Assembly (NCBI GenBank): GCA_964016885.1
Contig: OZ024741.1
Location: 40,424,001 to 40,488,000 of the forward strand
Length of the DNA stretch: 64,000 bases
DNA from: Eledone cirrhosa
Taxonomy: Eukaryota
Direction of reading: 5' to 3'
Shown piece after piece: positions 1 to 35,861 of the stretch. Below the pieces are notes generated by a model. That model was not told the origin of the DNA and made no database searches. It worked only from the letters and a program-made list of their open reading frames with translations. The stretch's first letter is position 1. Every line of letters starts with the position of its first letter. The position numbers were made by a program, and so were the translations under genes.

Positions 1-866
1 AACATGTTAACTTCCATGATATGGTTATAATAATCTACCATGTTAACCTCCATGATATAGTTATAATAATCTACCATGTTAACTTCCATGATATAGTTAT
101 CATAATCTACCATGTTACCTTCCATGATATGGTTATAATAAGTTAACATGTTAACTTCCATGATATAGTTATAATAATCTACCATGTTAACTTCCATGAT
201 ATAATTATATTAAGTTAACATGTTAACCTCCATGATATAGTTATAATAATCTACCATGTTAACTTCCATGATATAATTATATTAAGTTAACATGTTAACT
301 TCACTGATATAGTTATATTAATCTACTATGTTAACTTCCATGATATAGTTATAATAATCTACCATGTTAACTTCCATGATATAGTTATAATAATCTACCA
401 TGTTAACTTCCATGATATAATTATATTAAGTTAACATGTTAACTTCCATGATATAGTTATATTAATCTACTATGTTAACTTCCATGATATAGTTATAATA
501 ATCTACCATGTTAACTTCCATGATATAACTATATTAAGTTAACATGTTAACTTGATATAACTATATTAAGTTAACATGTTAACTTCCATGATATAGTTAT
601 ATTAATCTACTATGTTAACTTCCATGATATAGTTATATTAATCTACCATGTTAACTTCCATGATATAGTTATATTAATCTACTATGTTAACTTCCATGAT
701 ATGATTATAATAAGTTAACATATAAAATTCAATGATATAGTTATAATAATCTACCATGTTAACCTCCATGATATAGATATAATAATCTACCATGTTAACT
801 TCCATGATATAGTTATAATAATCTACCATGTTAACTTCCATAATATAGTTATAATAATCTACCATG
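1..866. repeat. 36-bp minisatellite (~24 copies, runs off window start)
   Basis: Unit ctaccatgttaacttccatgatatagttataataat with variants; the 12-aa periodicity of ORF 674..865 reflects it. Confidence 0.95.
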
Positions 867-7276: not shown

Positions 7277-7573
7277 AATGATATTAAATAAATGGAAACT
7301 ATATTTATAAAACCATATTTATTTTATTATATATATATTTCAAGGGTACCAACACTTTGGTACGTTCTCATCAGATAAAATACAAAGATTGTTTTATAAA
7401 TATTGACAATATTTATAAAATATTGATAATATTTATGAAATATTGTCAATATTTATAAAACAAACTTTGTATTTTATCTGATGAGAGCGTACCAAAGTGT
7501 TGGTACACTTGAAATATATATAATAGAATAAATATGGTTTTATAAATATAGTTTCCATTTATTTAATATCATT
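7277..7573. repeat. Near-perfect palindrome of hammerhead family H1 (divergent hammerheads at ~7320-7382 minus and ~7470-7529 plus)
   Basis: Arms are reverse complements; plus arm tattttat CTGATGA gagc-gtaccaaag-tg-ttggtac-actt GAAA tatat ATA atagaata. Confidence 0.88.
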
Positions 7574-7745: not shown

Positions 7746-7912
7746 AATACATCTACCAACATATGCGTACAGATGTACACTAATGCTAGTAAAAATATAA
7801 GTTATGTCAAAGTACCTAGGTGGTTCAATGCAGGGGGGATGCAGAACAATTATATGAAAGACGTAAAATAAGAAAATTTTAAAAATTAAAAATTAACTTA
7901 CTAAAATTTTCA

Positions 7913-7993
7913 CTCCAACTAATTAGTTTCTGTAATGGGATAAATATAGTTACACAATGTAACTATCGAGAATTCATTACGTCATCAGGGAAT
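7913..7993 (-). ncRNA. Type I hammerhead ribozyme (inverted copy)
   Basis: Reverse complement of 8727-8808; stem I attcc/ggagt retained through a G-U pair. Confidence 0.75.
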
Positions 7994-8726
7994 CTATTCT
8001 CAGCTAAGTTCCCAGGCAATGCGCGGACACTAGGAACCCATATAAAAATAATAATTCAGTGGATGTAATAAGCTAGCGGGAACTAAATTCCATAGCACTG
8101 AAAAAGTTCACTGCCTCTGGTCAGTGGTGGATTCTAAAGAATCAATCACGTGACACTGAGGTTAGTCAGTAGGAGTGGGGTGGTATTATGACAAGAGCCT
8201 ACTGATGACGTAATGAATTCTCGATAGTTACATTGTGTAACTATATTTATCCCATTACAGCTACTAATTAGTTGGAGTGAAAATTTTAGTAAGTTAATTT
8301 TTAATTTTTTTAATTTTCTTATTTTACGTCTTTCATATAATTGTTCTGCATCCCCCTGCATTGAACCACCTAGGTACTTTGACATAACTTATATTTTTAC
8401 TAGCATTAGTGTACATCTGTACGCATATGTTGGTAGATGTATTAATTCTCTATATTTATCTCCAAATTATTTGTTGAGCAAACTTGCCAAATCTACTGCT
8501 AATTCATAGTAGTAGTAGTAGGCTCTTGTCATAATACCACCCCACTCCTACTGACTAACCTCAGTGTCACGTGATTGATTCTTTAGAATCCACCACTGAC
8601 CAGAGGCAGTGAACTTTTTCAGTGCTATGGAATTTAGTCCCCGCTAGCTTATTACATCCACTGAATTATTATTTTTATATGGGTTCCTAGTGTCCGCGCA
8701 TTGCCTGGGAACTTAACTGAGAATAG

Positions 8727-8808
8727 ACTCCCTGATGACGTAATGAATTCTCGATAGTTACATTGTGTAACTATATTTATCCCATTACAGAAACTAATTA
8801 GTTGGAGT
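8727..8808 (+). ncRNA. Type I hammerhead ribozyme
   Basis: actcc CTGATGA c-gtaatg...atagttaca/tgtaactat...cattac-a GAA ACTAATTAGT T ggagt; GUU site at 8801-8803. Confidence 0.85.
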
Positions 8809-9029
8809 GAAAATTTTAGTAAGTAAGTTAATTTTTAATTTTTTAAATTTTCTTATTTTACGTCTTTCATATATATATATATATATATATATAAAGTATA
8901 TATACACACAAATACGTATATACACACATACATACATATATATATATATAGTGACGAAACATAAGTCAATTGCATGAACTCATAATCCTTTATTTACTGC
9001 TATATACATTTCTATATATATATATAGCA

Positions 9030-10437
9030 CACTTATCAGCAGAAACTACCCACCATTCCTAATCACCAATAGATTCCAACGTGCCCTAAAACTAGACATC
9101 CAGGAACTCAGACACCCCAAACCCAGGAGAGAACCGCAACAAAAATCTCTACCATACATCTCCACACACAACCCCCTCAACAATGAGGCATTCGATACCA
9201 TCCTCCAGAACATTCCTTTACTAAAAAGAGACCCAAGAATGAACAATATCCTCTAAACACACAACATCATAAAGAGCAAAAGACAACCCAAATCCATAAA
9301 AAATATCCTCACACAAGCCAAAATCCAACAAAGTTTCACAATAAACCCTACAGTAACAAAATGCGGAAGGCCCAACTGTGGCATATGTATAAATCTAATA
9401 GAAGGTTCAACATTCCATTTTAAACAAGGACAACGTTTCACAGTTAAACACAACTTTACATGTGCATCTGAAAACCTTATCTGTGTTTTGACCTGCTCAG
9501 GTTGTCTAGAACACTATATAGGACAGACAAAAATCAGCCTCCGTCAACGTATGACCGTCCATAAATCCCAAATTAAAATACAGGAATACAGAAAGATTGC
9601 ATTTAGTGAACATATCGCCAATTGTGCTCTCAACCAACTTCCAAACTTTAAAATTTTCCCCATTTACAAATTCATAGACAACGCTACTTTCATCAACGCA
9701 CCAATAAGGAAACACATTTCATTAATAAATTAATTTCAGCCAGTACTCAATGCCCTGAAATTCGCACCTTTCTAATACTGCAACAAACCATCAAACATTT
9801 ACAAGAGTTACCTCCCTCACACCATACCTAATCCTTTTTCTTAAATTAATTAAATATCACCCAGCAAGAATTGCTTCCCCCGGCATATTAACTCTCTAAA
9901 AAGGGAAATCATATCAAACCACAGTCCACCATTTGCCTCCTTCACGGAACCATGGTTCAACTCAACACTCTTGCGATATTAACACATTTTGAACTGCTTA
10001 ACTTCAATGACTGTACAGTACGTGTAAATAACATTAACTCTTCTTCCACATTGACTTTTTACGTTCCACATTATGCACGTTTTTTTTTCCTTTTTCTTTT
10101 TTCTTTTCACTTCTTAAACCTTGTTTGTATATAACATTATTCTTTCTGCACCTTCTGTTTAACATGTGCGACACCACACCAATACATTTCACTATCATTT
10201 GATAATGCATATAAATGCAGAAACCGGTAATAGACAATAATTAAATATATAAATAGATCAATAAATGCCATTGTTAAATAATAAATAAATCAACTAATAC
10301 CTTAACACTTCACACAAAGTAAAACATTTCGTTTTAATCATTTTCTAACCCAGAAAAAAAGAGAGAGAGAGACACAAAAAAAGAAAAAAAAAAGAAAAAA
10401 AAATGTTTCTTCCTCATAATCGTCTCTTTCTTCCTAT

Positions 10438-14220: not shown

Positions 14221-14412
14221 GGATGAAAGGCAAAGTTAACCTCTGCGGGATATGAACTCACACCAGAAAGGGCCGTAATTCTTTGCTAAAGGCATCATGG
14301 CGTCCGACCCTCTACCGATACTGCCAATCCAAATGCTATATATATATAATCGCTGGCCTTGTGCCAAAAGTAGAAACAATTATTATATATATATATGTGT
14401 GTGTGTGTATAT

Positions 14413-14446
<34 letters not shown>

Positions 14447-14632
14447 TGAATTGGCAGTATCTGTAGAGGGTCGGACGTCATGCTTTGACGTATAGAGTTA
14501 CGGCCCTTGCCATTCTGAGTTCAAATCCCGCCAAGGTTAACTTTGCCTTTCATCCTTATGGGGTCGATAAAATAAAGTACCAGTAATGCACTGGTTAATT
14601 CCTGGCCTTGTGCCAAAAGTAGAAACAATTAT
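14221..14632. mobile_element. SINE S1 pieces (14221-14330 minus; 14350-14382 and 14447-14632 plus)
   Basis: Same S1 core and 3' end gccttgtgccaaaagtagaaacaattat. Confidence 0.85.
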
Positions 14633-21109: not shown

Positions 21110-22550
21110 CAACAATGAAGGACACATTAGATAGTGCAGTCCTAGATATACTTATACCTTTAAAAAGTACCAACATTAACAATGACGGGTACATTAGATA
21201 GTGCAGTCCTAGATATACTTATACCTTTAAAAAGTACCAACATTAACAATGACGGGTACATTAGATAGTGCAGTCCTAGATATACTTATACCTTTAAAAA
21301 GTACCAACATTAACAATGACGGGTACATTAGATAGTGTAGTCCTAGATATACTTATACCTTTAAAAAGTACCAACATTAACAATGACGGGTACATTAGAT
21401 AGTGTAGTCCTAGATATACTTATACCTTTAAAAAGTACCAACATTAACAATGACGGGTACATTAGATAGTGCAGTCCTAGATATACTTATACCTTTAAAA
21501 AGTACCAACATTAACAATGACGGGTACATTAGATAGTGCAGTCCTAGATATACTTATACCTTTAAAAAGTACCAACATCAACAATGAAGGACACATTAGA
21601 TAGTGTAGTCCTAGATATACTTATACCTTTAAAAAGTACCAACATCAACAATGAAGGACACATTAGATAGTGCAGTCCTAGATATACTTATACCTTTAAA
21701 AAGTACCAACATTAACAATGACGGGTACATTAGATAGTGCAGTCCTAGATATACTTATACCTTTAAAAAGTACCAACATCAACAATGAAGGACACATTAG
21801 ATAGTGTAGTCCTAGATATACTTATACCTTTAAAAAGTACCAACATCAACAATGAAGGACACATTAGATAGTGTAGTCCTAGATATACTTATACCTTTAA
21901 AAAGTACCAACATTAACAATGACGGGTACATTAGATAGTGCAGTCCTAGATATACTTATACCTTTAAAAAGTACCAACATCAACAATGAAGGACACATTA
22001 GATAGTGTAGTCCTAGATATACTTATACCTTTAAAAAGTACCAACATTAACAATGACGGGTACATTAGATAGTGCAGTCCTAGATATACTTATACCTTTA
22101 AAAAGTACCAACATTAACAATGACGGGTACATTAGATAGTGCAGTCCTAGATATACTTATACCTTTAAAAAGTACCAACATCAACAATGAAGGACACATT
22201 AGATAGTGTAGTCCTAGATATACTTATACCTTTAAAAAGTACCAACATCAACAATGAAGGACACATTAGATAGTGCAGTCCTAGATATACTTATACCTTT
22301 AAAAAGTACCAACATTAACAATGACGGGTACATTAGATAGTGCAGTCCTAGATATACTTATACCTTTAAAAAGTACCAACATCAACAATGAAGGACACAT
22401 TAGATAGTGTAGTCCTAGATATACTTATACCTTTAAAAAGTACCAACATCAACAAGGAAGGACACATTAGATAGTGCAGTCCTAGATATACTTATACCTT
22501 TAAAAAGTACCAACATCAACAAGGAAGGATACATTGGATGGTGCAGTGGT
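21110..22550. repeat. 67-bp minisatellite, ~21 copies, two interleaved variants
   Basis: acattagatagtgYagtcctagatatacttatacctttaaaaagtaccaacatYaacaatga(cgggt/aggac); period 21191 to 21258. Confidence 0.97.
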
Positions 22551-30383: not shown

Positions 30384-30927
30384 CAGCGAGATTCGTATTT
30401 CGGCTGAGGTCGAAAACAAAGCGAAACGCAATATCTGAGTTATGCTGGCAAACGCTCCATGGACCAAATAAAGTCCAGAGCAATAAACATAGGTTATAAA
30501 GGCCAAACAAACTGAGATGGCGGTAAAGAAGCCATCAACCACCTAAGCCAAAAAGACGAGGCAAGCCAAACAGGTCAAACAAAATAATATAAATATTTAC
30601 CCGGCCCCCTGGAAAAGATGGTATAATCCAGTACAGGGGTTCTGCGACACCTACATGATTTATACTGCCTGCTTAAAATAATAAGCTTTTGGTATAAAGA
30701 TCGAACAAGACTGTCACTTCGTCAACAAGTATTTTGTTCTACGTCAGCATGCTGAATCATGTTGTGGTATGTAGTAGTAAAACCACGTGTGTAGTAGTAA
30801 AACCACGTATTCAAGGGAGAAAACCCCAGATTTTGGCAGATGAATTCAGTAAGTGTAAAATTAAGGCAATAATTGCAAAAAACTGCACAAATCGAATATA
30901 TATATATATATATATATATATGAGGTA

Positions 30928-31015
30928 TCCTCTTGATAAGTCGGCAGACCTCGCAGGGACTCTATATCTTTGATATATTGTTTTTGTTTATGCCACGAAA
31001 CTACGTAGTCGAGGA
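30928..31015 (+). ncRNA. Type I hammerhead, U3-A8 core
   Basis: tcctc TTGATAA g.cggca...tgcca-c GAA ACTACGTAGT C gagga; GUC site ends 31010. Confidence 0.8.
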
Positions 31016-31518
31016 ATTTAGGAACAGTTTAGGTATGATACATTTTATTACTAATTATATCTAAATGTTTCTTCTCTCTTCATAATGTATATTTAACTCT
31101 GATACTGGTTCAGTCTAGTTCAAACTGAATTGGTCTGTCCCAGTCATTCATTGAGCAACATCGGTGAAGTTGGCACCCTTAACTCACAGTTGGGTGCGGA
31201 TGCATTCATGTATATATGTGTGTGTCCGCATGTATCTGTGTGTTTCTAAATATATTAATAACTCCCTCTGGTCGAGCAATCTTTGAAGTGTGGGGACAAC
31301 TGGAAAGCTTCCATTACTCATACTTCTCGCCTTCTTCACTACCTCTTCTACGGCCTCGATATGAATACCCCCTCCGCCTCCGTGGTATTTTCTTCGTGGT
31401 TATAAGAGGCTTAGCTCTGTTTCTCGACCGTTATATCGCGTGACTATCTCCCCCTCCGCCTTTTGGGATTCTTTCTCACGTCGTGTAGACGCGTTCTTGA
31501 GACTAGTAAAATGAGGTA

Positions 31519-31606
31519 TCCTCTTGATAAGTCGGCAGACCTCGCAGGGACTCTATATCTTTGATATATTGTTTTTGTTTATGCCACGAAACTACGTAGT
31601 CGAGGA
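31519..31606 (+). ncRNA. Second copy of the U3-A8 hammerhead
   Basis: Same sequence as 30928-31015; GUC site ends 31601. Confidence 0.8.
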
Positions 31607-31837
31607 ATTTAGGAACAGTTTAGGTATGATACATTTTATTACTAATTATATCTAAATGTTTCTTCTCTCTTCATAATGTATATTTAACTCTGATACTGGT
31701 TCAGTCTAGTTCAAACTGAATTGGTCTGTCCCAGTCATTCATTGAGCAACATCGGTGAAGTTGGCACCCTTAACTCACAGTTGGGTGCGGATGCATTCAT
31801 GTATATATGTGTGTGTCCGCATGTATCTGTGTGTTTC

Positions 31838-31877
<40 letters not shown>

Positions 31878-32379
31878 CTGTAGTACTAAGCTAGCGTTAT
31901 GCGTATTAGAGCTGTATATTAGAGTACTATATGTTTATCAAAGAAAAAATTATTTTGCTGTTACGAAAAATTATTTAATCCTTGTTAGCGAGGCCTCCAT
32001 ATGTTTATTGTTTAGAAATATATAGTATATACTTCCATATATATATATATATATTTACACGCACATACATATATATATTCACTGATCTATCAAGATCGAT
32101 GATGCTGGTATATCATCAAAAGTTATACATCTCTTATGTATTTTATCTGGCGAGGGTATGCTCTGATTTATGTTACACATAAATGTTTGCATCACTGAAA
32201 TATATATAATATCCACGAAATATATATAATGAAATAAATAGTGATGATATAAAGTATATATCTCTCGTTTATTACTATCATTATCACAATACTCCAGATA
32301 AATATTATCTGTTGAGTACTTCGTATCTGTTAAACACATAAATCAGTTGATTACATATCAACTAAGTCTTTAACTCATT

Positions 32380-32428
<49 letters not shown>

Positions 32429-32635
32429 CATATTAGAAAAGGGAAGTAAGGTTCTATACAAAACCGTGGATATACAGAAAAGGTGAAGTTGGAAAAAGCA
32501 CGGAAAATATATTTTAGGGTCTGGTTTTTGGGGGGTTTCTATTTCCTTCTTTGATTCATCAAAGTGACATTATTGAAAAGATGATATTATTGAAAAAATG
32601 GGAGGACAATTCTTTTTAAAAAAAGTTTTATAATG

Positions 32636-32680
32636 TATTACCGGTTTCGATGTATTATTAAAATTCATCTTATCAAATGT
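32636..32680 (-). ncRNA. Minimal hammerhead, U3-A8 core (weak stem I)
   Basis: Minus: TTGATAA gatg...catc GAA ACCGGT A. Confidence 0.55.
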
Positions 32681-33016
32681 TGAGTATTACAATTAAAAAG
32701 AATTAATAGGAATGAAAAACTAAAAATTAAAGATTTAAAATTAAGTGTTGGAGTAAGTTTTTTTCCTATCTTCCTTGCTCAGAAGTGTATATATATATAT
32801 ATATACGTTTAATTTTGGTGGTTTACCACTGGGTAGAACTGGTCATTCTGCAATGTTAACCATGACGTAATATGAGGTGGGCAAGCAATGTAGCAGCATG
32901 CTACATTGTCCGTCTCTGGGTCAAAAGCATAGCACACACTTTTTCCTCTTTGTTTTTCTTTGCTTCTTTCCTTAAAGCTTACCGTCATTCCGTTTGTATA
33001 TATCTATTACGAAATT

Positions 33017-33075
33017 TATACCTGATGAGGTCACTGGGTTCTTACGCAAACTGGCCACTGAAATGTGCATAGTGC
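33017..33075 (+). ncRNA. Type I hammerhead motif
   Basis: tac CTGATGA ggtca...tggcc act GAA ATGTGCAT A gtg. Confidence 0.55.
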
Positions 33076-33138
33076 ATAGTGTTTACAGTAATAAAAAATT
33101 AAGAAAATTCAACATATTTCGCCTCCTCTCATTTCACT

Positions 33139-33225
<87 letters not shown>

Positions 33226-33570
33226 ATTGCCATATATGAGTTCTCTAGTATTCTGGGGATTTAATCAGAGGTAAACACTGTATTTAAGGCCGACTGACGC
33301 AACTTCGAGTGAGTAAGATAGACTCACCTGATCAATGAAACAATTGTTAATACTTGAAGTAAAGCCCCTTGTAGTACAGCCGACCATGTTATTCTTCAAT
33401 CTTTCACTATTATTACTCCAAGTATAACCTACATAGGAATTCTCGCGAACTCGCTGCCTAACTATGGAAACATATTGTTGAGTCACACAACGCCGTACGT
33501 TAAAACTATCCACGACACGGAGTACTCACAACCTCTAACTGGATTACCTATAACGATAACTTGTTATCCC

Positions 33571-33602
<32 letters not shown>

Positions 33603-33608
33603 TGTATG

Positions 33609-33675
<67 letters not shown>

Positions 33676-34276
33676 TTGACTAAATAGTCTCACACTAACG
33701 AATAAATAAATTAAACCGGAGTTTTTCCGTATCTTCCCATTTTCAATCATATAAATATAAATATTCTTCTTAACTCAGTTAATTTAATTTAATTTAACTT
33801 AATATTTATTTACATAAAATACAAAACCAATATCCCTCATAACTCATTAGAACAATTATCTATAACATGATATACCCATCTATTTATTTATTTATTTATT
33901 TATCTATTTATTTATCTACTTATAATAGAAGAAAAATATTATATTATAAACAGATTTTAAACAACTAATAATCGTAAATACACGTACTATTAAGATATAT
34001 ACTTAGAATATATTTCCCTCAAATTAACGTTATATGAGTTTTTATTCATCTTCCCTTTTTTCTTTCTTCTCTCTCTCGCACTATTTTATCCTTCTCCTCT
34101 TCTCTCTCGCTCCATAGTCGTTTAAATAAATGGTTGTTTTTCAATTATTTACATATTCATTTGCATATTTACCCATAAGTTTGAAAAATCCCTAATATAT
34201 TTCCACTATCCAGAGAATATCCAACCGATAAGGTATAATTTTCATGGGTATGTCTCTATTTATGAAACAAACTTTG

Positions 34277-34338
34277 TATTTTATCTGAGGAAAGCGTACC
34301 AATGTGTTTTGGTACCCTTGAAATATATATAATAAAAT
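34277..34338 (+). ncRNA. Hammerhead family H1 copy (CUGAGGA)
   Basis: tattttat CTGAGGA ...gtaccaa/ttggtac... GAAA tatat ATA ataaaata; 8-bp stem I; varies at free position 7. Confidence 0.78.
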
Positions 34339-34459
34339 AAATATGGTTTTATAAATATAGTTTCCATTTATTTAATATCATTGAATATTTACTCCTGTAA
34401 CTTGTTGAGTGCTCTATGTAGGCTACATGTATAGGTGTGTGTGTATATTTATGTATACA

Positions 34460-34508
<49 letters not shown>

Positions 34509-34565
34509 GCATATATATATAAATATATATGTATGTATATATATGTATATATATATGTATGTATA

Positions 34566-34621
<56 letters not shown>

Positions 34622-34675
34622 AACGAGTACTTTGGTGCGTTATGGTCCACCTGGTTCCTTACCACATTTCCTTCG

Positions 34676-34748
<73 letters not shown>

Positions 34749-35315
34749 ATATATATATATATATATTATATATATATATATGTTTGTATATATATATATA
34801 TATGTATGTATATATATATATATATGTGTGTGTGTATGTGTATGTATATATGTTTTTGTATATATGTGTATATATATGTGTATGGATTTACGTATATGTT
34901 TATATGTATGCGTATGTCGATTTTTCATTGCGTGCGTAGAGTTTTTTGTTTTTGCGTTTTTGTGTTTGTACGTATTTATGTGTGTATACACCCCCTTTTT
35001 ATACGTGTCTGTGTATTTGTGTGTACATATTTGAGTGCATATATATCTGTGTATATGTATGTGTATGTATTTATGTTCCTGTTCGTTTTTCTATGTAGAC
35101 GCAAATACGCTTATGTGAGAAAGTATATGTCTACGTACTATTACGTATATGCGCGTGGTTGAGTGTGTGTATGTTTATGTTCTGGATATTTATTTTTATT
35201 TATCATTTTTTTTTTTATTAGCCTATTTCCTTTCTGCCCGTTTTTTCAGCCCCACTTTCATATTTTCTAAATTTTGTTTTTAAATCCATATTTAATAAAA
35301 ACACCATGTTATTTA

Positions 35316-35376
35316 TTCATTCTGACGACTGAAGACAGACATAACATCTGCCTTCAAGAAACCACTGGTAAATGAA
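35316..35376 (+). ncRNA. Type I hammerhead ribozyme (CUGACGA)
   Basis: ttcatt CTGACGA c-tgaag.cag...ctg.cttca-a GAA ACCA-c-TGGT A aatgaa; all three stems pair. Confidence 0.85.
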
Positions 35377-35422
35377 ATAATTATCTTATGTTTGTTTATT
35401 ACAAAACTATATATATATATAT

Positions 35423-35796
35423 ATTATGAAGAGAGAAGAAACATTTAGATATAATTAGTAATAAAATGTATCATACCTAAACTGTTCCTAAATTCCTCGA
35501 CTACGTAGTTTCGTGGCATAAACAAAAACAATATATCAAAGATATAGAGTCCTTGCGAGGTCTGCCGACTTATCAAGAGGATACCTCATTTTACTAGTCT
35601 CAAGAACGCGTCTACACGACGTGAGAAAGAATCCCAAAAGGCGGAGGGGGAGATAGTCACGCGATATAACGGTCGAGAAACAGAGCTAAGCCTCCTATAA
35701 CCACGAAGAAAATACCACGGAGGCGGAGGGGGTATTCATATCGAGGCCGCAGAAGAGATAGTGAAGAAGGCGAGAAGTATGAGTAATGGAAGCTTT

Positions 35797-35799
<3 letters not shown>
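35423..35799 (-). mobile_element. Permuted copy of the 591-bp unit, with hammerhead at 35494-35581
   Basis: Reverse complement of ~31300-31677 with a few substitutions; flanked by (TA)n. Confidence 0.9.

Positions 35800-35861
<62 letters not shown>

What the first reader, a model, noticed from the sequence alone, without database searches (positions are those of the whole stretch)
30920..35799. 591-nt retrozyme-like replicon: tandem hammerheads plus a permuted copy nearby
Seen: a 591-bp non-coding unit present as 1.57 tandem copies, with hammerheads predicted to cut after 31010 and 31601 and so release an exact 591-nt monomer. An inverted copy at 35423-35799 starts and ends at different points, spans the monomer junction, and is also embedded in (TA)n. 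Inference: insertions templated from a circular or multimeric RNA and mobilised in trans by Penelope-like RT/GIY-YIG proteins, of which decayed examples lie at 9030 and 46980. It is longer than the metazoan non-LTR retrozymes I recall (about 150-400 nt).
Basis: partly seen in the sequence, partly recalled or inferred. Interest (0 to 1): 0.85.

Follow-up and report, generated by a model that had tools for sequence, protein, structure and literature searches.

The report
Hammerhead retrozyme family in TA microsatellites
A 591-base non-coding repeat carrying a predicted self-cutting RNA motif sits in TA microsatellites and belongs to a large family of similar copies; it is likely a new member of the known animal 'retrozymes', likely spread by Penelope-like retrotransposon enzymes, and its RNA is untested.

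Summary
There is a 591-bp period with 336 of 336 bases identical, and an inverted copy (373 of 377 identical) that has other ends and crosses the predicted cut site. Both insertions lie in (TA)n. Each unit carries a type I hammerhead motif with the rarer U3-A8 core, a palindromic helix III, a 57-nt helix II arm and a possible pseudoknot. Rfam misses it.

It is not a local duplication. One public run gave 1546 contigs covering the whole unit, including the head-to-tail joint, with no listed high-depth continuation into a longer element. Depth drops just after two TA-like sites that match the two insertion ends. Both nearby Penelope-like remnants are real, and the Neptune-like one has a U3-A8 hammerhead motif in its 3' UTR, but neither resembles the unit in sequence.

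Best reading: a non-LTR retrozyme mobilised by a (TA)n-targeting Penelope-like element. Cleavage, circular RNA and the partner are untested, and fold models disfavour the active ribozyme in full context. The length is not unusual (published range 51-972 bp). Hits under other organism labels were trace-level or absent in the three such runs laid, so they do not show horizontal transfer. New member of a known kind.

The parts
30920..31846 (+). Insertion 1: 1.57 head-to-tail copies of the 591-bp unit, two hammerhead motifs; last few bases ambiguous with the TA tract
   Evidence: 336/336 identical at period 591
30921..31015 (+). Hammerhead motif a (type I): helix I 30928-32 with 31011-15; core UUGAUAA 30933-39 (U3-A8); helix II arm 30940-96 starting with G10.1-C11.1; GAAA 30997-31000; palindromic helix III 31000-09; predicted cut after C31010; possible pseudoknot 30921-26 with 30948-53
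   Evidence: descriptor scan and shuffles; pair list and constrained fold; pseudoknot duplex -6.9 kcal/mol, chance 0.0065 (chosen after seeing it)
31011..31601 (+). Predicted 591-nt monomer RNA between the two cut sites; 41.6% GC, 61% paired
   Evidence: linear fold z -6.2; circular fold z -5.4 on +, -0.8 on -; GC and pairing
31011..31081 (+). Predicted hairpin that takes up the 3' strand of helix I (possible lock of the ribozyme)
   Evidence: -19.3 kcal/mol; present in monomer, circle and precursor folds
31368..31461 (+). Two identical 12-nt GC-box-like words (31368-79, 31450-61); promoter role is speculation
31512..31606 (+). Hammerhead motif b, identical to a; predicted cut after C31601
35423..35799 (-). 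Insertion 2: 377-bp partial copy equal to unit 31301-31677, one hammerhead motif (35588-35494) with the cut site intact
   Evidence: 4 differences in 377
30896..30921 (.). (TA)n at the 5' side of insertion 1
31841..31874 (.). (TA)n at the 3' side of insertion 1; the unit itself reads TATAT at this point (microhomology)
35409..35422 (.). (TA)n at the 3' side (RNA sense) of insertion 2; the unit reads TAATGTATAT here
35800..35857 (.). (TA)n at the 5' side (RNA sense) of insertion 2
9026..10229 (+). Context, not part of the unit: 5'-truncated Neptune-like PLE (C-terminal third of the ORF, CX4CxxC linker, GIY-YIG with internal CxxC) with a U3-A8 hammerhead-like motif at 10199-10229 in its 3' UTR (helix I only 2 bp); candidate class of helper
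   Evidence: 41-56% identity to the C-terminal parts of 8 PLE-like proteins, 6 with an RT domain; motif; clade motifs from Craig 2021
47152..48656 (-). Context, not part of the unit: decayed Hydra-clade-like PLE (RT then GIY-YIG, CxCX5C linker, no cysteines between GIY and YIG)
   Evidence: ORF listing, Atlas look-alikes with GIY-YIG and HTH_animal, clade definition

Best explanation
This is a many-copy, non-coding 591-bp repeat with a hammerhead motif in every unit, inserted in TA microsatellites, and it likely spreads as a non-LTR retrozyme: tandem transcripts would self-cleave to 591-nt monomers, likely be closed into circles, and likely be copied back by a Penelope-like (probably Neptune-type) RT/GIY-YIG protein. 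Shown: the repeat, the motif, the (TA)n sites, the many diverged copies, the seamless joint, and ends that differ between copies. Inferred steps: (1) a copy with two motifs, such as insertion 1, is transcribed on the + strand; (2) the ribozymes cut, possibly as a double hammerhead through the 10-nt palindromic helix III and helped by a pseudoknot; (3) a host ligase closes the monomer, in which the ribozyme is predicted to be folded off; (4) the PLE endonuclease nicks (TA)n, the nick anneals to one of two UA-rich spots 76 and about 241 nt downstream of the cut site, and RT runs through the junction for 0.64 (insertion 2) or 1.57 (insertion 1) rounds.
For: Hammerhead consensus met, with 5 of 3000 shuffles matching. 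U3-A8 is a natural, in-vitro-active covariation (Perreault 2011 section 8) and occurs in Schistosoma PLE hammerheads (Cervera 2014). The fold is strong on + only (z -5.4 against -0.8), as expected for selection on an RNA. Run X1: 1546 contigs laid (610 at 99%+, 409 at 95-99, 245 at 90-95, 282 under 90), depth in 30 of 30 bins, the joint 31846 to 31256 in 5 contigs, no other joint listed, share running on into unlike sequence 0. 11 X1 contigs end in (TA)n behind 31683, at the end of insertion 2. Summed depth falls from 5.7e5 to 1.7e5 across that site, and is 1.2-1.5e5 for 100 bases after the 31842 site against 2.5e5 or more before it. Both insertions keep the cut site intact and have TA-like microhomology at the 3' end only. 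Zero differences in the 336-bp overlap has probability 0.028 at the 4/377 divergence seen between the two insertions. (TA)n targeting is described for Naiad and Hydra PLEs and hypothesised for Neptune (Craig 2021). The local Neptune-like remnant has the same U3-A8 core and a palindromic helix III.
Against: No RNA evidence. Fold models disfavour the active ribozyme: helix I probability 0.0002 in the circle and about 0 for motif b with its upstream sequence at all 11 transcript lengths tried; cost 6.2-6.8 kcal/mol per monomeric fold and 10.5 for the double hammerhead, with the pseudoknot not modelled together. In Li 2026, 8 of 9 predicted retrozyme dimers showed no cleavage, and PLE-type hammerheads cleave poorly in vitro. 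Ends appear to cluster at two sites rather than being freely permuted, which a linear read-through RNA also explains. Variants keeping the predicted pairs (1 break in 12 against 3.0 expected) are not significant, P=0.10. No similarity of the unit to either PLE 3' region (94 and 87 of 100 shuffles scored as high). X1's kind is not on record, its depth is uncalibrated, and it may be the window's own sample.
Confidence: 0.6

Rival explanations
1. A non-autonomous PLE derivative that moves without a circle. Linear read-through transcripts, with the hammerhead slow or vestigial, are primed at their (UA)n tail or at an internal UA-rich spot, and the 1.57-mer is the usual PLE partial tandem (a 5'-truncated copy followed by a full copy), made by a second round of priming or from an uncut multimer.
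For: Partial tandems are the normal PLE structure, also for non-autonomous Chlamys elements that mostly lack hammerheads (Craig 2021). Insertion 1 reads as a 332-bp 3' part plus one full unit ending near 31842. Depth is lowest just downstream of that end. The active fold is disfavoured.
Against: With two 3' ends 165 nt apart, template jumps should give a second, shorter period; no such joint is listed in X1, though these contigs drop rare variants. The motif is complete, and none of the 9 common X1 variants falls in the core, helix I or helix III (weak, under one would be expected there by chance).
Confidence: 0.25
2. The copies are terminal (pLTR) fragments of a coding Penelope-like element whose ORF lies elsewhere in the genome.
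For: The hammerhead is of PLE type (U3-A8, palindromic helix III). Most PLE copies are 5'-truncated termini, and retrozymes derive from pLTRs (Li 2026). 91 loose ends were not shown, and one shown X1 loose end is 255 letters of unknown sequence before 31418.
Against: No ORF remnant in the unit, whereas a pLTR often reaches into the ORF end. In X1 the share running on into unlike sequence is 0 and no place where many molecules begin or end was listed. The unit closes on itself head to tail.
Confidence: 0.1
3. A simple local tandem plus inverted duplication with a chance hammerhead-like motif.
For: Only three copies lie in the window, within 4.9 kb.
Against: 1546 contigs from under 90% to over 99% identity in one run; motif in 5 of 3000 shuffles; strand-specific fold.
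Confidence: 0.02
4. The element has spread horizontally among many species, as the 17 organism labels might suggest.
For: 20 of 24 listed runs, from 16 studies, hold sampled words; 14 hold half or more.
Against: Of 4 runs laid, only X1 held it in depth. X22 (same organism label as a 0.70 holder; 1938 million letters read) gave 5 reads, all on the microsatellite-like part. X15 and X18 gave 3 read-sized contigs each at depth 2-4.4, and two X15 contigs leave the unit at GANT-ANTC-type joins that I recall as proximity-ligation junctions. That fits trace carry-over of a very abundant repeat.
Confidence: 0.05

Closest known systems
Metazoan non-LTR retrozymes (Cervera and de la Pena 2020, PMC7229834; Li, Clavereau and Pollet 2026, bioRxiv 10.64898/2026.07.22.740005)
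   Same: Non-coding head-to-tail unit, one type I hammerhead per unit, GC under 50%, strongly self-paired predicted RNA, no LTR structure, many copies, co-occurrence with PLEs; length inside the 51-972 bp range of Li 2026.
   Different: The hammerhead is not the canonical C3-G8 form with loop-loop contacts: it has U3-A8, a 57-nt helix II arm, a 10-nt palindrome and a possible pseudoknot. It is longer than the 170-400 nt RNAs shown by northern blot in coral, mussel and axolotl. The ribozyme is predicted to be blocked in the circle, which Cervera 2020 notes only for some mussel retrozymes among animals. The copies seen are short dispersed insertions in (TA)n.
PLE pLTR hammerheads (Cervera and de la Pena 2014, PMC4209133), including the U3-A8 variant of Schistosoma Cercyon
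   Same: U3-A8 core, G10.1-C11.1, palindromic helix III suited to dimers, 5-bp helix I, position upstream of the element's 3' end.
   Different: [quoted passage not shown]
Neptune, Naiad and Hydra PLEs and non-autonomous Chlamys/MRC1 elements (Craig et al. 2021, PMC8557442)
   Same: Partial tandem insertions, 5' truncation, microsatellite targets, no discernible target-site duplication.
   Different: No RT or endonuclease; no detected similarity to the 3' end of a local autonomous-type element; at least two 3' end sites.
Pseudoknot-stabilised hammerheads (Perreault et al. 2011, PMC3088659)
   Same: A 5-6 bp Watson-Crick contact is possible between the strand 5' of helix I and a loop in helix II; about 40% of their set is predicted to use a pseudoknot.
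   Different: Here it rests on one sequence family with no covariation, and the same strand can also form a hairpin that blocks helix I.

Membership tests
non-LTR retrozyme | Type I hammerhead motif in each repeat unit | tested here: met
   Descriptor hits in all three copies; 5 of 3000 shuffles. Rfam models did not match.
non-LTR retrozyme | Head-to-tail tandem with two consecutive complete motifs | tested here: met
   Two complete motifs 591 bp apart, though only 1.57 units; the joint is also in 5 X1 contigs and 1 X15 contig.
non-LTR retrozyme | No protein coding; no LTR arrangement | tested here: met
   PBS and PPT were not searched for specifically.
non-LTR retrozyme | GC under 50% and a stable self-paired RNA | tested here: met
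   41.6% GC; z -6.2 linear, -5.4 circular, + strand only.
non-LTR retrozyme | Many genomic copies | tested here: met
   1546 contigs of graded identity in run X1; the copy number itself is uncalibrated and no genome is held.
non-LTR retrozyme | Monomer size in the known range | tested here: met
   591 bp lies within 51-972 bp (Li 2026) but above the 170-400 nt of Cervera 2020.
non-LTR retrozyme | Target-site duplication (when present) | tested here: inconclusive
   Both insertions are flanked by (TA)n on both sides, which hides any duplication.
non-LTR retrozyme | Self-cleavage of the transcript | not testable with these tools
   Fold models only; active fold 6.2-10.5 kcal/mol above the minimum without the pseudoknot.
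non-LTR retrozyme | Accumulation of linear and circular monomer RNA | not testable with these tools
   No RNA run was available to lay.
autonomous PLE (pLTR of a coding element) | RT plus GIY-YIG ORF between or next to the repeats | tested here: not met
   No ORF in or beside the window's copies; no listed high-depth continuation in X1. Rare master copies are not excluded.
autonomous PLE (pLTR of a coding element) | One shared 3' end with 5' truncation | tested here: inconclusive
   The two insertions share neither end, but ends appear to cluster at two sites.
PLE-type hammerhead | Palindromic helix III, G10.1-C11.1, core with a 3-8 Watson-Crick pair | tested here: met
   definitions.
PLE-type hammerhead | [quoted passage not shown] | tested here: not met
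   G30940 follows A30939 directly and pairs with C30996.

The most novel reading that the evidence does not exclude
A young, very abundant retrozyme that uses a PLE-type U3-A8 hammerhead as a built-in switch. One short strand (30921-26) either blocks helix I or forms a pseudoknot with a loop of a 57-nt helix II arm, so the RNA cuts in tandem transcripts and is locked as a circle. A Neptune-type RT then primes on that circle at two fixed UA-rich sites, so genomic copy ends would record rolling reverse transcription on a circular template. Consensus-based screens would miss such elements, and if the host is an octopod (recalled from SINE-like repeats, not tested) no cephalopod retrozyme turned up in my paper searches.
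Probability: 0.2. Interest if true: 0.65.

Novelty: new member of a known kind. Interest (0 to 1): 0.42.

Why it matters
The class is known and its link to Penelope-like elements is already in print, so the element is not surprising in kind. It is useful as a test case. Whether PLE hammerheads really make circular RNAs that template longer-than-unit insertions is still a hypothesis in the papers read. A short, young, very abundant family with a constant period and two discrete priming sites lets that be tested by mapping copy ends and by one RT-PCR. The atypical ribozyme, missed by Rfam, also suggests that retrozyme counts made with C3-G8 descriptors are too low.

Tried and rejected
Genome-wide BLAST: no genome is held. 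Rfam: no hammerhead match, only miRNA-family and other noise on simple repeats. RNA runs: no RNA holder listed, which says nothing about expression. Metagenome scans: the gapped motif gave 0 loci; a 20-mer gave 1 locus, L001, whose flanks do not resemble the unit and which I treat as chance. Viral contigs: 0. Earlier findings: none by sequence or place. Coding remnant in the unit: none. Similarity to local PLE 3' regions or to the second hammerhead family: none significant (the best was 6 of 100 shuffles scoring as high). Structure conservation among variants: P=0.10. Pol III transcription is unlikely because the + strand has four runs of 4-5 T (inference). A paper search for the SINE-like motif to confirm the host group found nothing. 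The supplement of Cervera 2020 could not be read and the preprint supplements are closed; either may list similar or cephalopod elements.
Full report
OBSERVATION. The window is an animal-type sequence rich in microsatellites. Some SINE-like repeats look octopod to me, but that is recalled and one paper search did not confirm it. Between (TA)n tracts at 30896-30921 and 31841-31874 lies a 926-bp insertion with period 591: 30920-31255 equals 31511-31846 at 336 of 336 bases. A second insertion, 35423-35799 on the minus strand, equals unit positions 31301-31677 with 4 differences in 377 and is also flanked by (TA)n on both sides. The two insertions share neither end, and both cross the predicted cut site intact. 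No other copy lies in the window.

THE RIBOZYME MOTIF. Rfam found no hammerhead. A descriptor that allows any Watson-Crick pair at positions 3 and 8 hit all three copies, and hit 5 of 3000 dinucleotide shuffles of the unit. The motif is type I: helix I 30928-32 with 31011-15, core UUGAUAA 30933-39, helix II from G30940-C30996 with a 57-nt arm, GAAA 30997-31000, a 10-nt palindrome forming helix III, and GUC with the cut after 31010. U3-A8 is a natural covariation, shown active in vitro (Perreault 2011, section 8), and occurs in Schistosoma PLE hammerheads (Cervera 2014). The palindrome can pair between two copies at -14.3 kcal/mol, as in the double hammerheads proposed for PLEs. The strand 30921-26 can pair with 30948-53 in a helix II loop (-6.9 kcal/mol); 0.65% of random 8-mers of the unit do so, a figure computed after I had seen the match. 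The same strand can instead fold back on the 5' strand of helix I.

FOLDING. The 591-nt monomer folds far better than shuffles (z -6.2, 0 of 100). As a circle z is -5.4 on the plus strand and -0.8 on the minus strand (40 shuffles each), which points to selection on a plus-strand RNA. Against activity, the models put the active fold 6.2-6.8 kcal/mol (monomeric) or 10.5 kcal/mol (double hammerhead) above the minimum. Helix I has probability 0.0002 in the circle and about 0 for the second motif with its upstream sequence at all 11 lengths tried. It reaches 0.3-0.76 at 7 of 11 lengths only when the transcript starts at 30921. A hairpin at 31011-31081 takes the 3' strand of helix I. These models leave out the pseudoknot and folding kinetics, so they can be read as a lock on the circle or as a dead ribozyme. 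Of 12 variant sites (9 common in run X1 and 4 in insertion 2, one shared), 1 breaks a predicted pair against 3.0 expected, P=0.10: not significant.

CODING. Six-frame Pfam gave only weak hits under cut-off. Eight PLE-like proteins gave no tblastn hit under E=1, and the longest ATG ORF is 75 aa.

COPIES ELSEWHERE. No genome is held. Of 24 listed runs, 20 from 16 studies hold words of the insertion. I laid 4 of the 24 on one monomer, 31256-31846. X1 gave 1546 contigs (610, 409, 245 and 282 in the bands 99+, 95-99, 90-95 and under 90% identity) with depth in 30 of 30 bins, 1.2e5 to 5.7e5 summed. Six of the 8 X1 pieces shown are diverged contigs at depth 5.6-14.9. If those are single loci, the median bin is 2-6 x 10^4 times higher. 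The tool warns that summed depth is no copy number and overlapping contigs inflate it, so I claim only 'likely thousands'. X1's kind is not on record (I infer DNA from 1381 million letters of contigs), and it may be the window's own sample. The only X1 joint listed is 31846 back to 31256 (5 contigs, depth 17440). The share running on into unlike sequence is 0, and no place where many molecules begin or end is listed; 91 loose ends were not shown. Eleven contigs end in (TA)n behind 31683, at the end of insertion 2. Depth falls from 5.7e5 to 1.7e5 across that site, and is 1.2-1.5e5 over the 100 bases after the 31842 site. I read this as two preferred 3' end sites; it is a description of noisy bins, not a test. 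The other three runs held next to nothing. X22 gave 5 reads, all on the microsatellite-like part, in 1938 million letters, although another run with the same organism label held 0.70 of the words. X15 and X18 gave 3 read-sized contigs each at depth 2-4.4, two in X15 leaving the unit at GANT-ANTC-type joins that I recall from proximity-ligation libraries.

JUNCTIONS. At the 3' ends (RNA sense) the unit itself is TA-like (TATAT at 31842, TAATGTATAT at 31674), while the 5' ends share only 1-2 bases with the tract. That is the polarity expected if a nick in (TA)n primes reverse transcription on the plus-strand RNA (inference). The zero-difference overlap in insertion 1 has probability 0.028 at the divergence between the two insertions, so its two copies likely came from one template in one event.

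HELPERS. 9026-9757 (+) matches the C-terminal parts of 8 longer proteins at 41-56%; it has a CX4CxxC linker and cysteines inside GIY-YIG, the Neptune/Nematis pattern of Craig 2021. Its 3' UTR holds a U3-A8 motif with a palindromic helix III at 10199-10229, with helix I reduced to 2 bp, and a similar motif lies at 32676-32639. 47152-48656 (-) has RT upstream of a GIY-YIG domain with a CxCX5C linker and no internal cysteines, the Hydra-clade pattern. (TA)n targeting is reported for Hydra and Naiad and hypothesised for Neptune. The unit shows no similarity to either 3' region (94 and 87 of 100 shuffles scored as high), so the Neptune-like helper is a lead from the shared core only.

MECHANISM. 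Most likely (0.6): transcription of a two-motif copy, self-cleavage, host ligation to a circle, and PLE-primed reverse transcription into (TA)n from two UA-rich sites, running through the junction for less or more than one round. All of these steps are inferred. The main rival (0.25) is the same PLE-driven movement from linear, uncut RNA with an ordinary partial tandem. A pLTR of a coding element (0.1) is not excluded for rare master copies. Local duplication is excluded.

KNOWN SYSTEMS. The anatomy matches metazoan non-LTR retrozymes (Cervera and de la Pena 2020: abstract, sections 13, 14, 17 and passages read; supplement unreadable). Li et al. 2026 (parts 1-3 of 5 read; supplements closed) give consensus lengths of 51-972 bp, tie these elements to PLE pLTRs, and found cleavage in 1 of 9 dimers tested. 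So the length is ordinary and activity cannot be assumed. Also used: Cervera 2014 (parts 1-2 of 4), Craig 2021 (passages and section 11), Perreault 2011 (passages and section 8), Weinberg 2019 and de la Pena 2020 (passages). Lunse et al. on PLE hammerhead variants was seen only as a citation and may describe similar forms. Searches listed no paper on a cephalopod retrozyme or on this ribozyme form; I judged most of these from titles and abstract openings, and the library lacks most subscription papers.

VERDICT. A real, many-copy, likely young hammerhead-bearing non-autonomous element; a new member of the non-LTR retrozyme kind with an atypical PLE-type ribozyme. Interest 0.42.

Noticed in passing
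window 7478-7522 (+), 7374-7328 (-), 34285-34331 (+), 55408-55358 (-); related sequence at 2751-2908: A second, unrelated hammerhead family (C3-G8 core, 8-bp AT-rich helix I, (AT)n palindromic helix III) in a repeat of about 140-160 bp at 88-92% identity; the 7.3-7.5 kb pair is inverted. A decayed look-alike lies near 32148 (seen by eye).
   Followed up: partly
window 10199-10229 (+) and 32676-32639 (-): Two U3-A8 hammerhead-like motifs with an ACCGGT palindrome; the first lies in the 3' UTR of the Neptune-like remnant, the second about 800 bp from insertion 1.
   Followed up: partly
window 33022-33078 (+): Another weak hammerhead-like motif (C3-G8 core, 4-bp helix I) near a TA tract.
   Followed up: no
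window 47152-48656 (-): Decayed PLE with the Hydra-clade CxCX5C linker, interrupted by a TA tract.
   Followed up: partly
window 40099-45501 (-): Two long open frames (643 aa and 1156 aa) that look like ORF1 and an endonuclease-RT ORF2 of an L1/Tx1-type retrotransposon (label recalled), with fragments at about 5.8-6.9, 23.7-26.0 and 60.6-63.2 kb.
   Followed up: no
window 7891-8829: 313-bp inverted repeat at 98% with a 313-bp spacer, just upstream of the Neptune-like remnant; may be a PLE-type inverted structure.
   Followed up: no
window 31846/31256 joint in run X1: Some contigs carry 3-7 extra letters at this joint (depth 6840 for the commonest), perhaps a slightly longer subfamily or an edge effect.
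   Followed up: no
window 31028-31120 (+): By eye, a 5' splice-site-like word, a branch-point-like word, a pyrimidine tract and an AG within about 90 nt downstream of the cut site; D. virilis Penelope has an intron next to its hammerhead. The spacing to the branch-like word is short, so this is weak.
   Followed up: no
window 3-866 and 21111-22547: Minisatellites of 36 bp (24 copies) and 67 bp (21 copies, 95% matches).
   Followed up: no
window 14287-14487 and 50546-50625: Small elements with terminal inverted repeats, seen as hairpin matches in the Rfam output.
   Followed up: no
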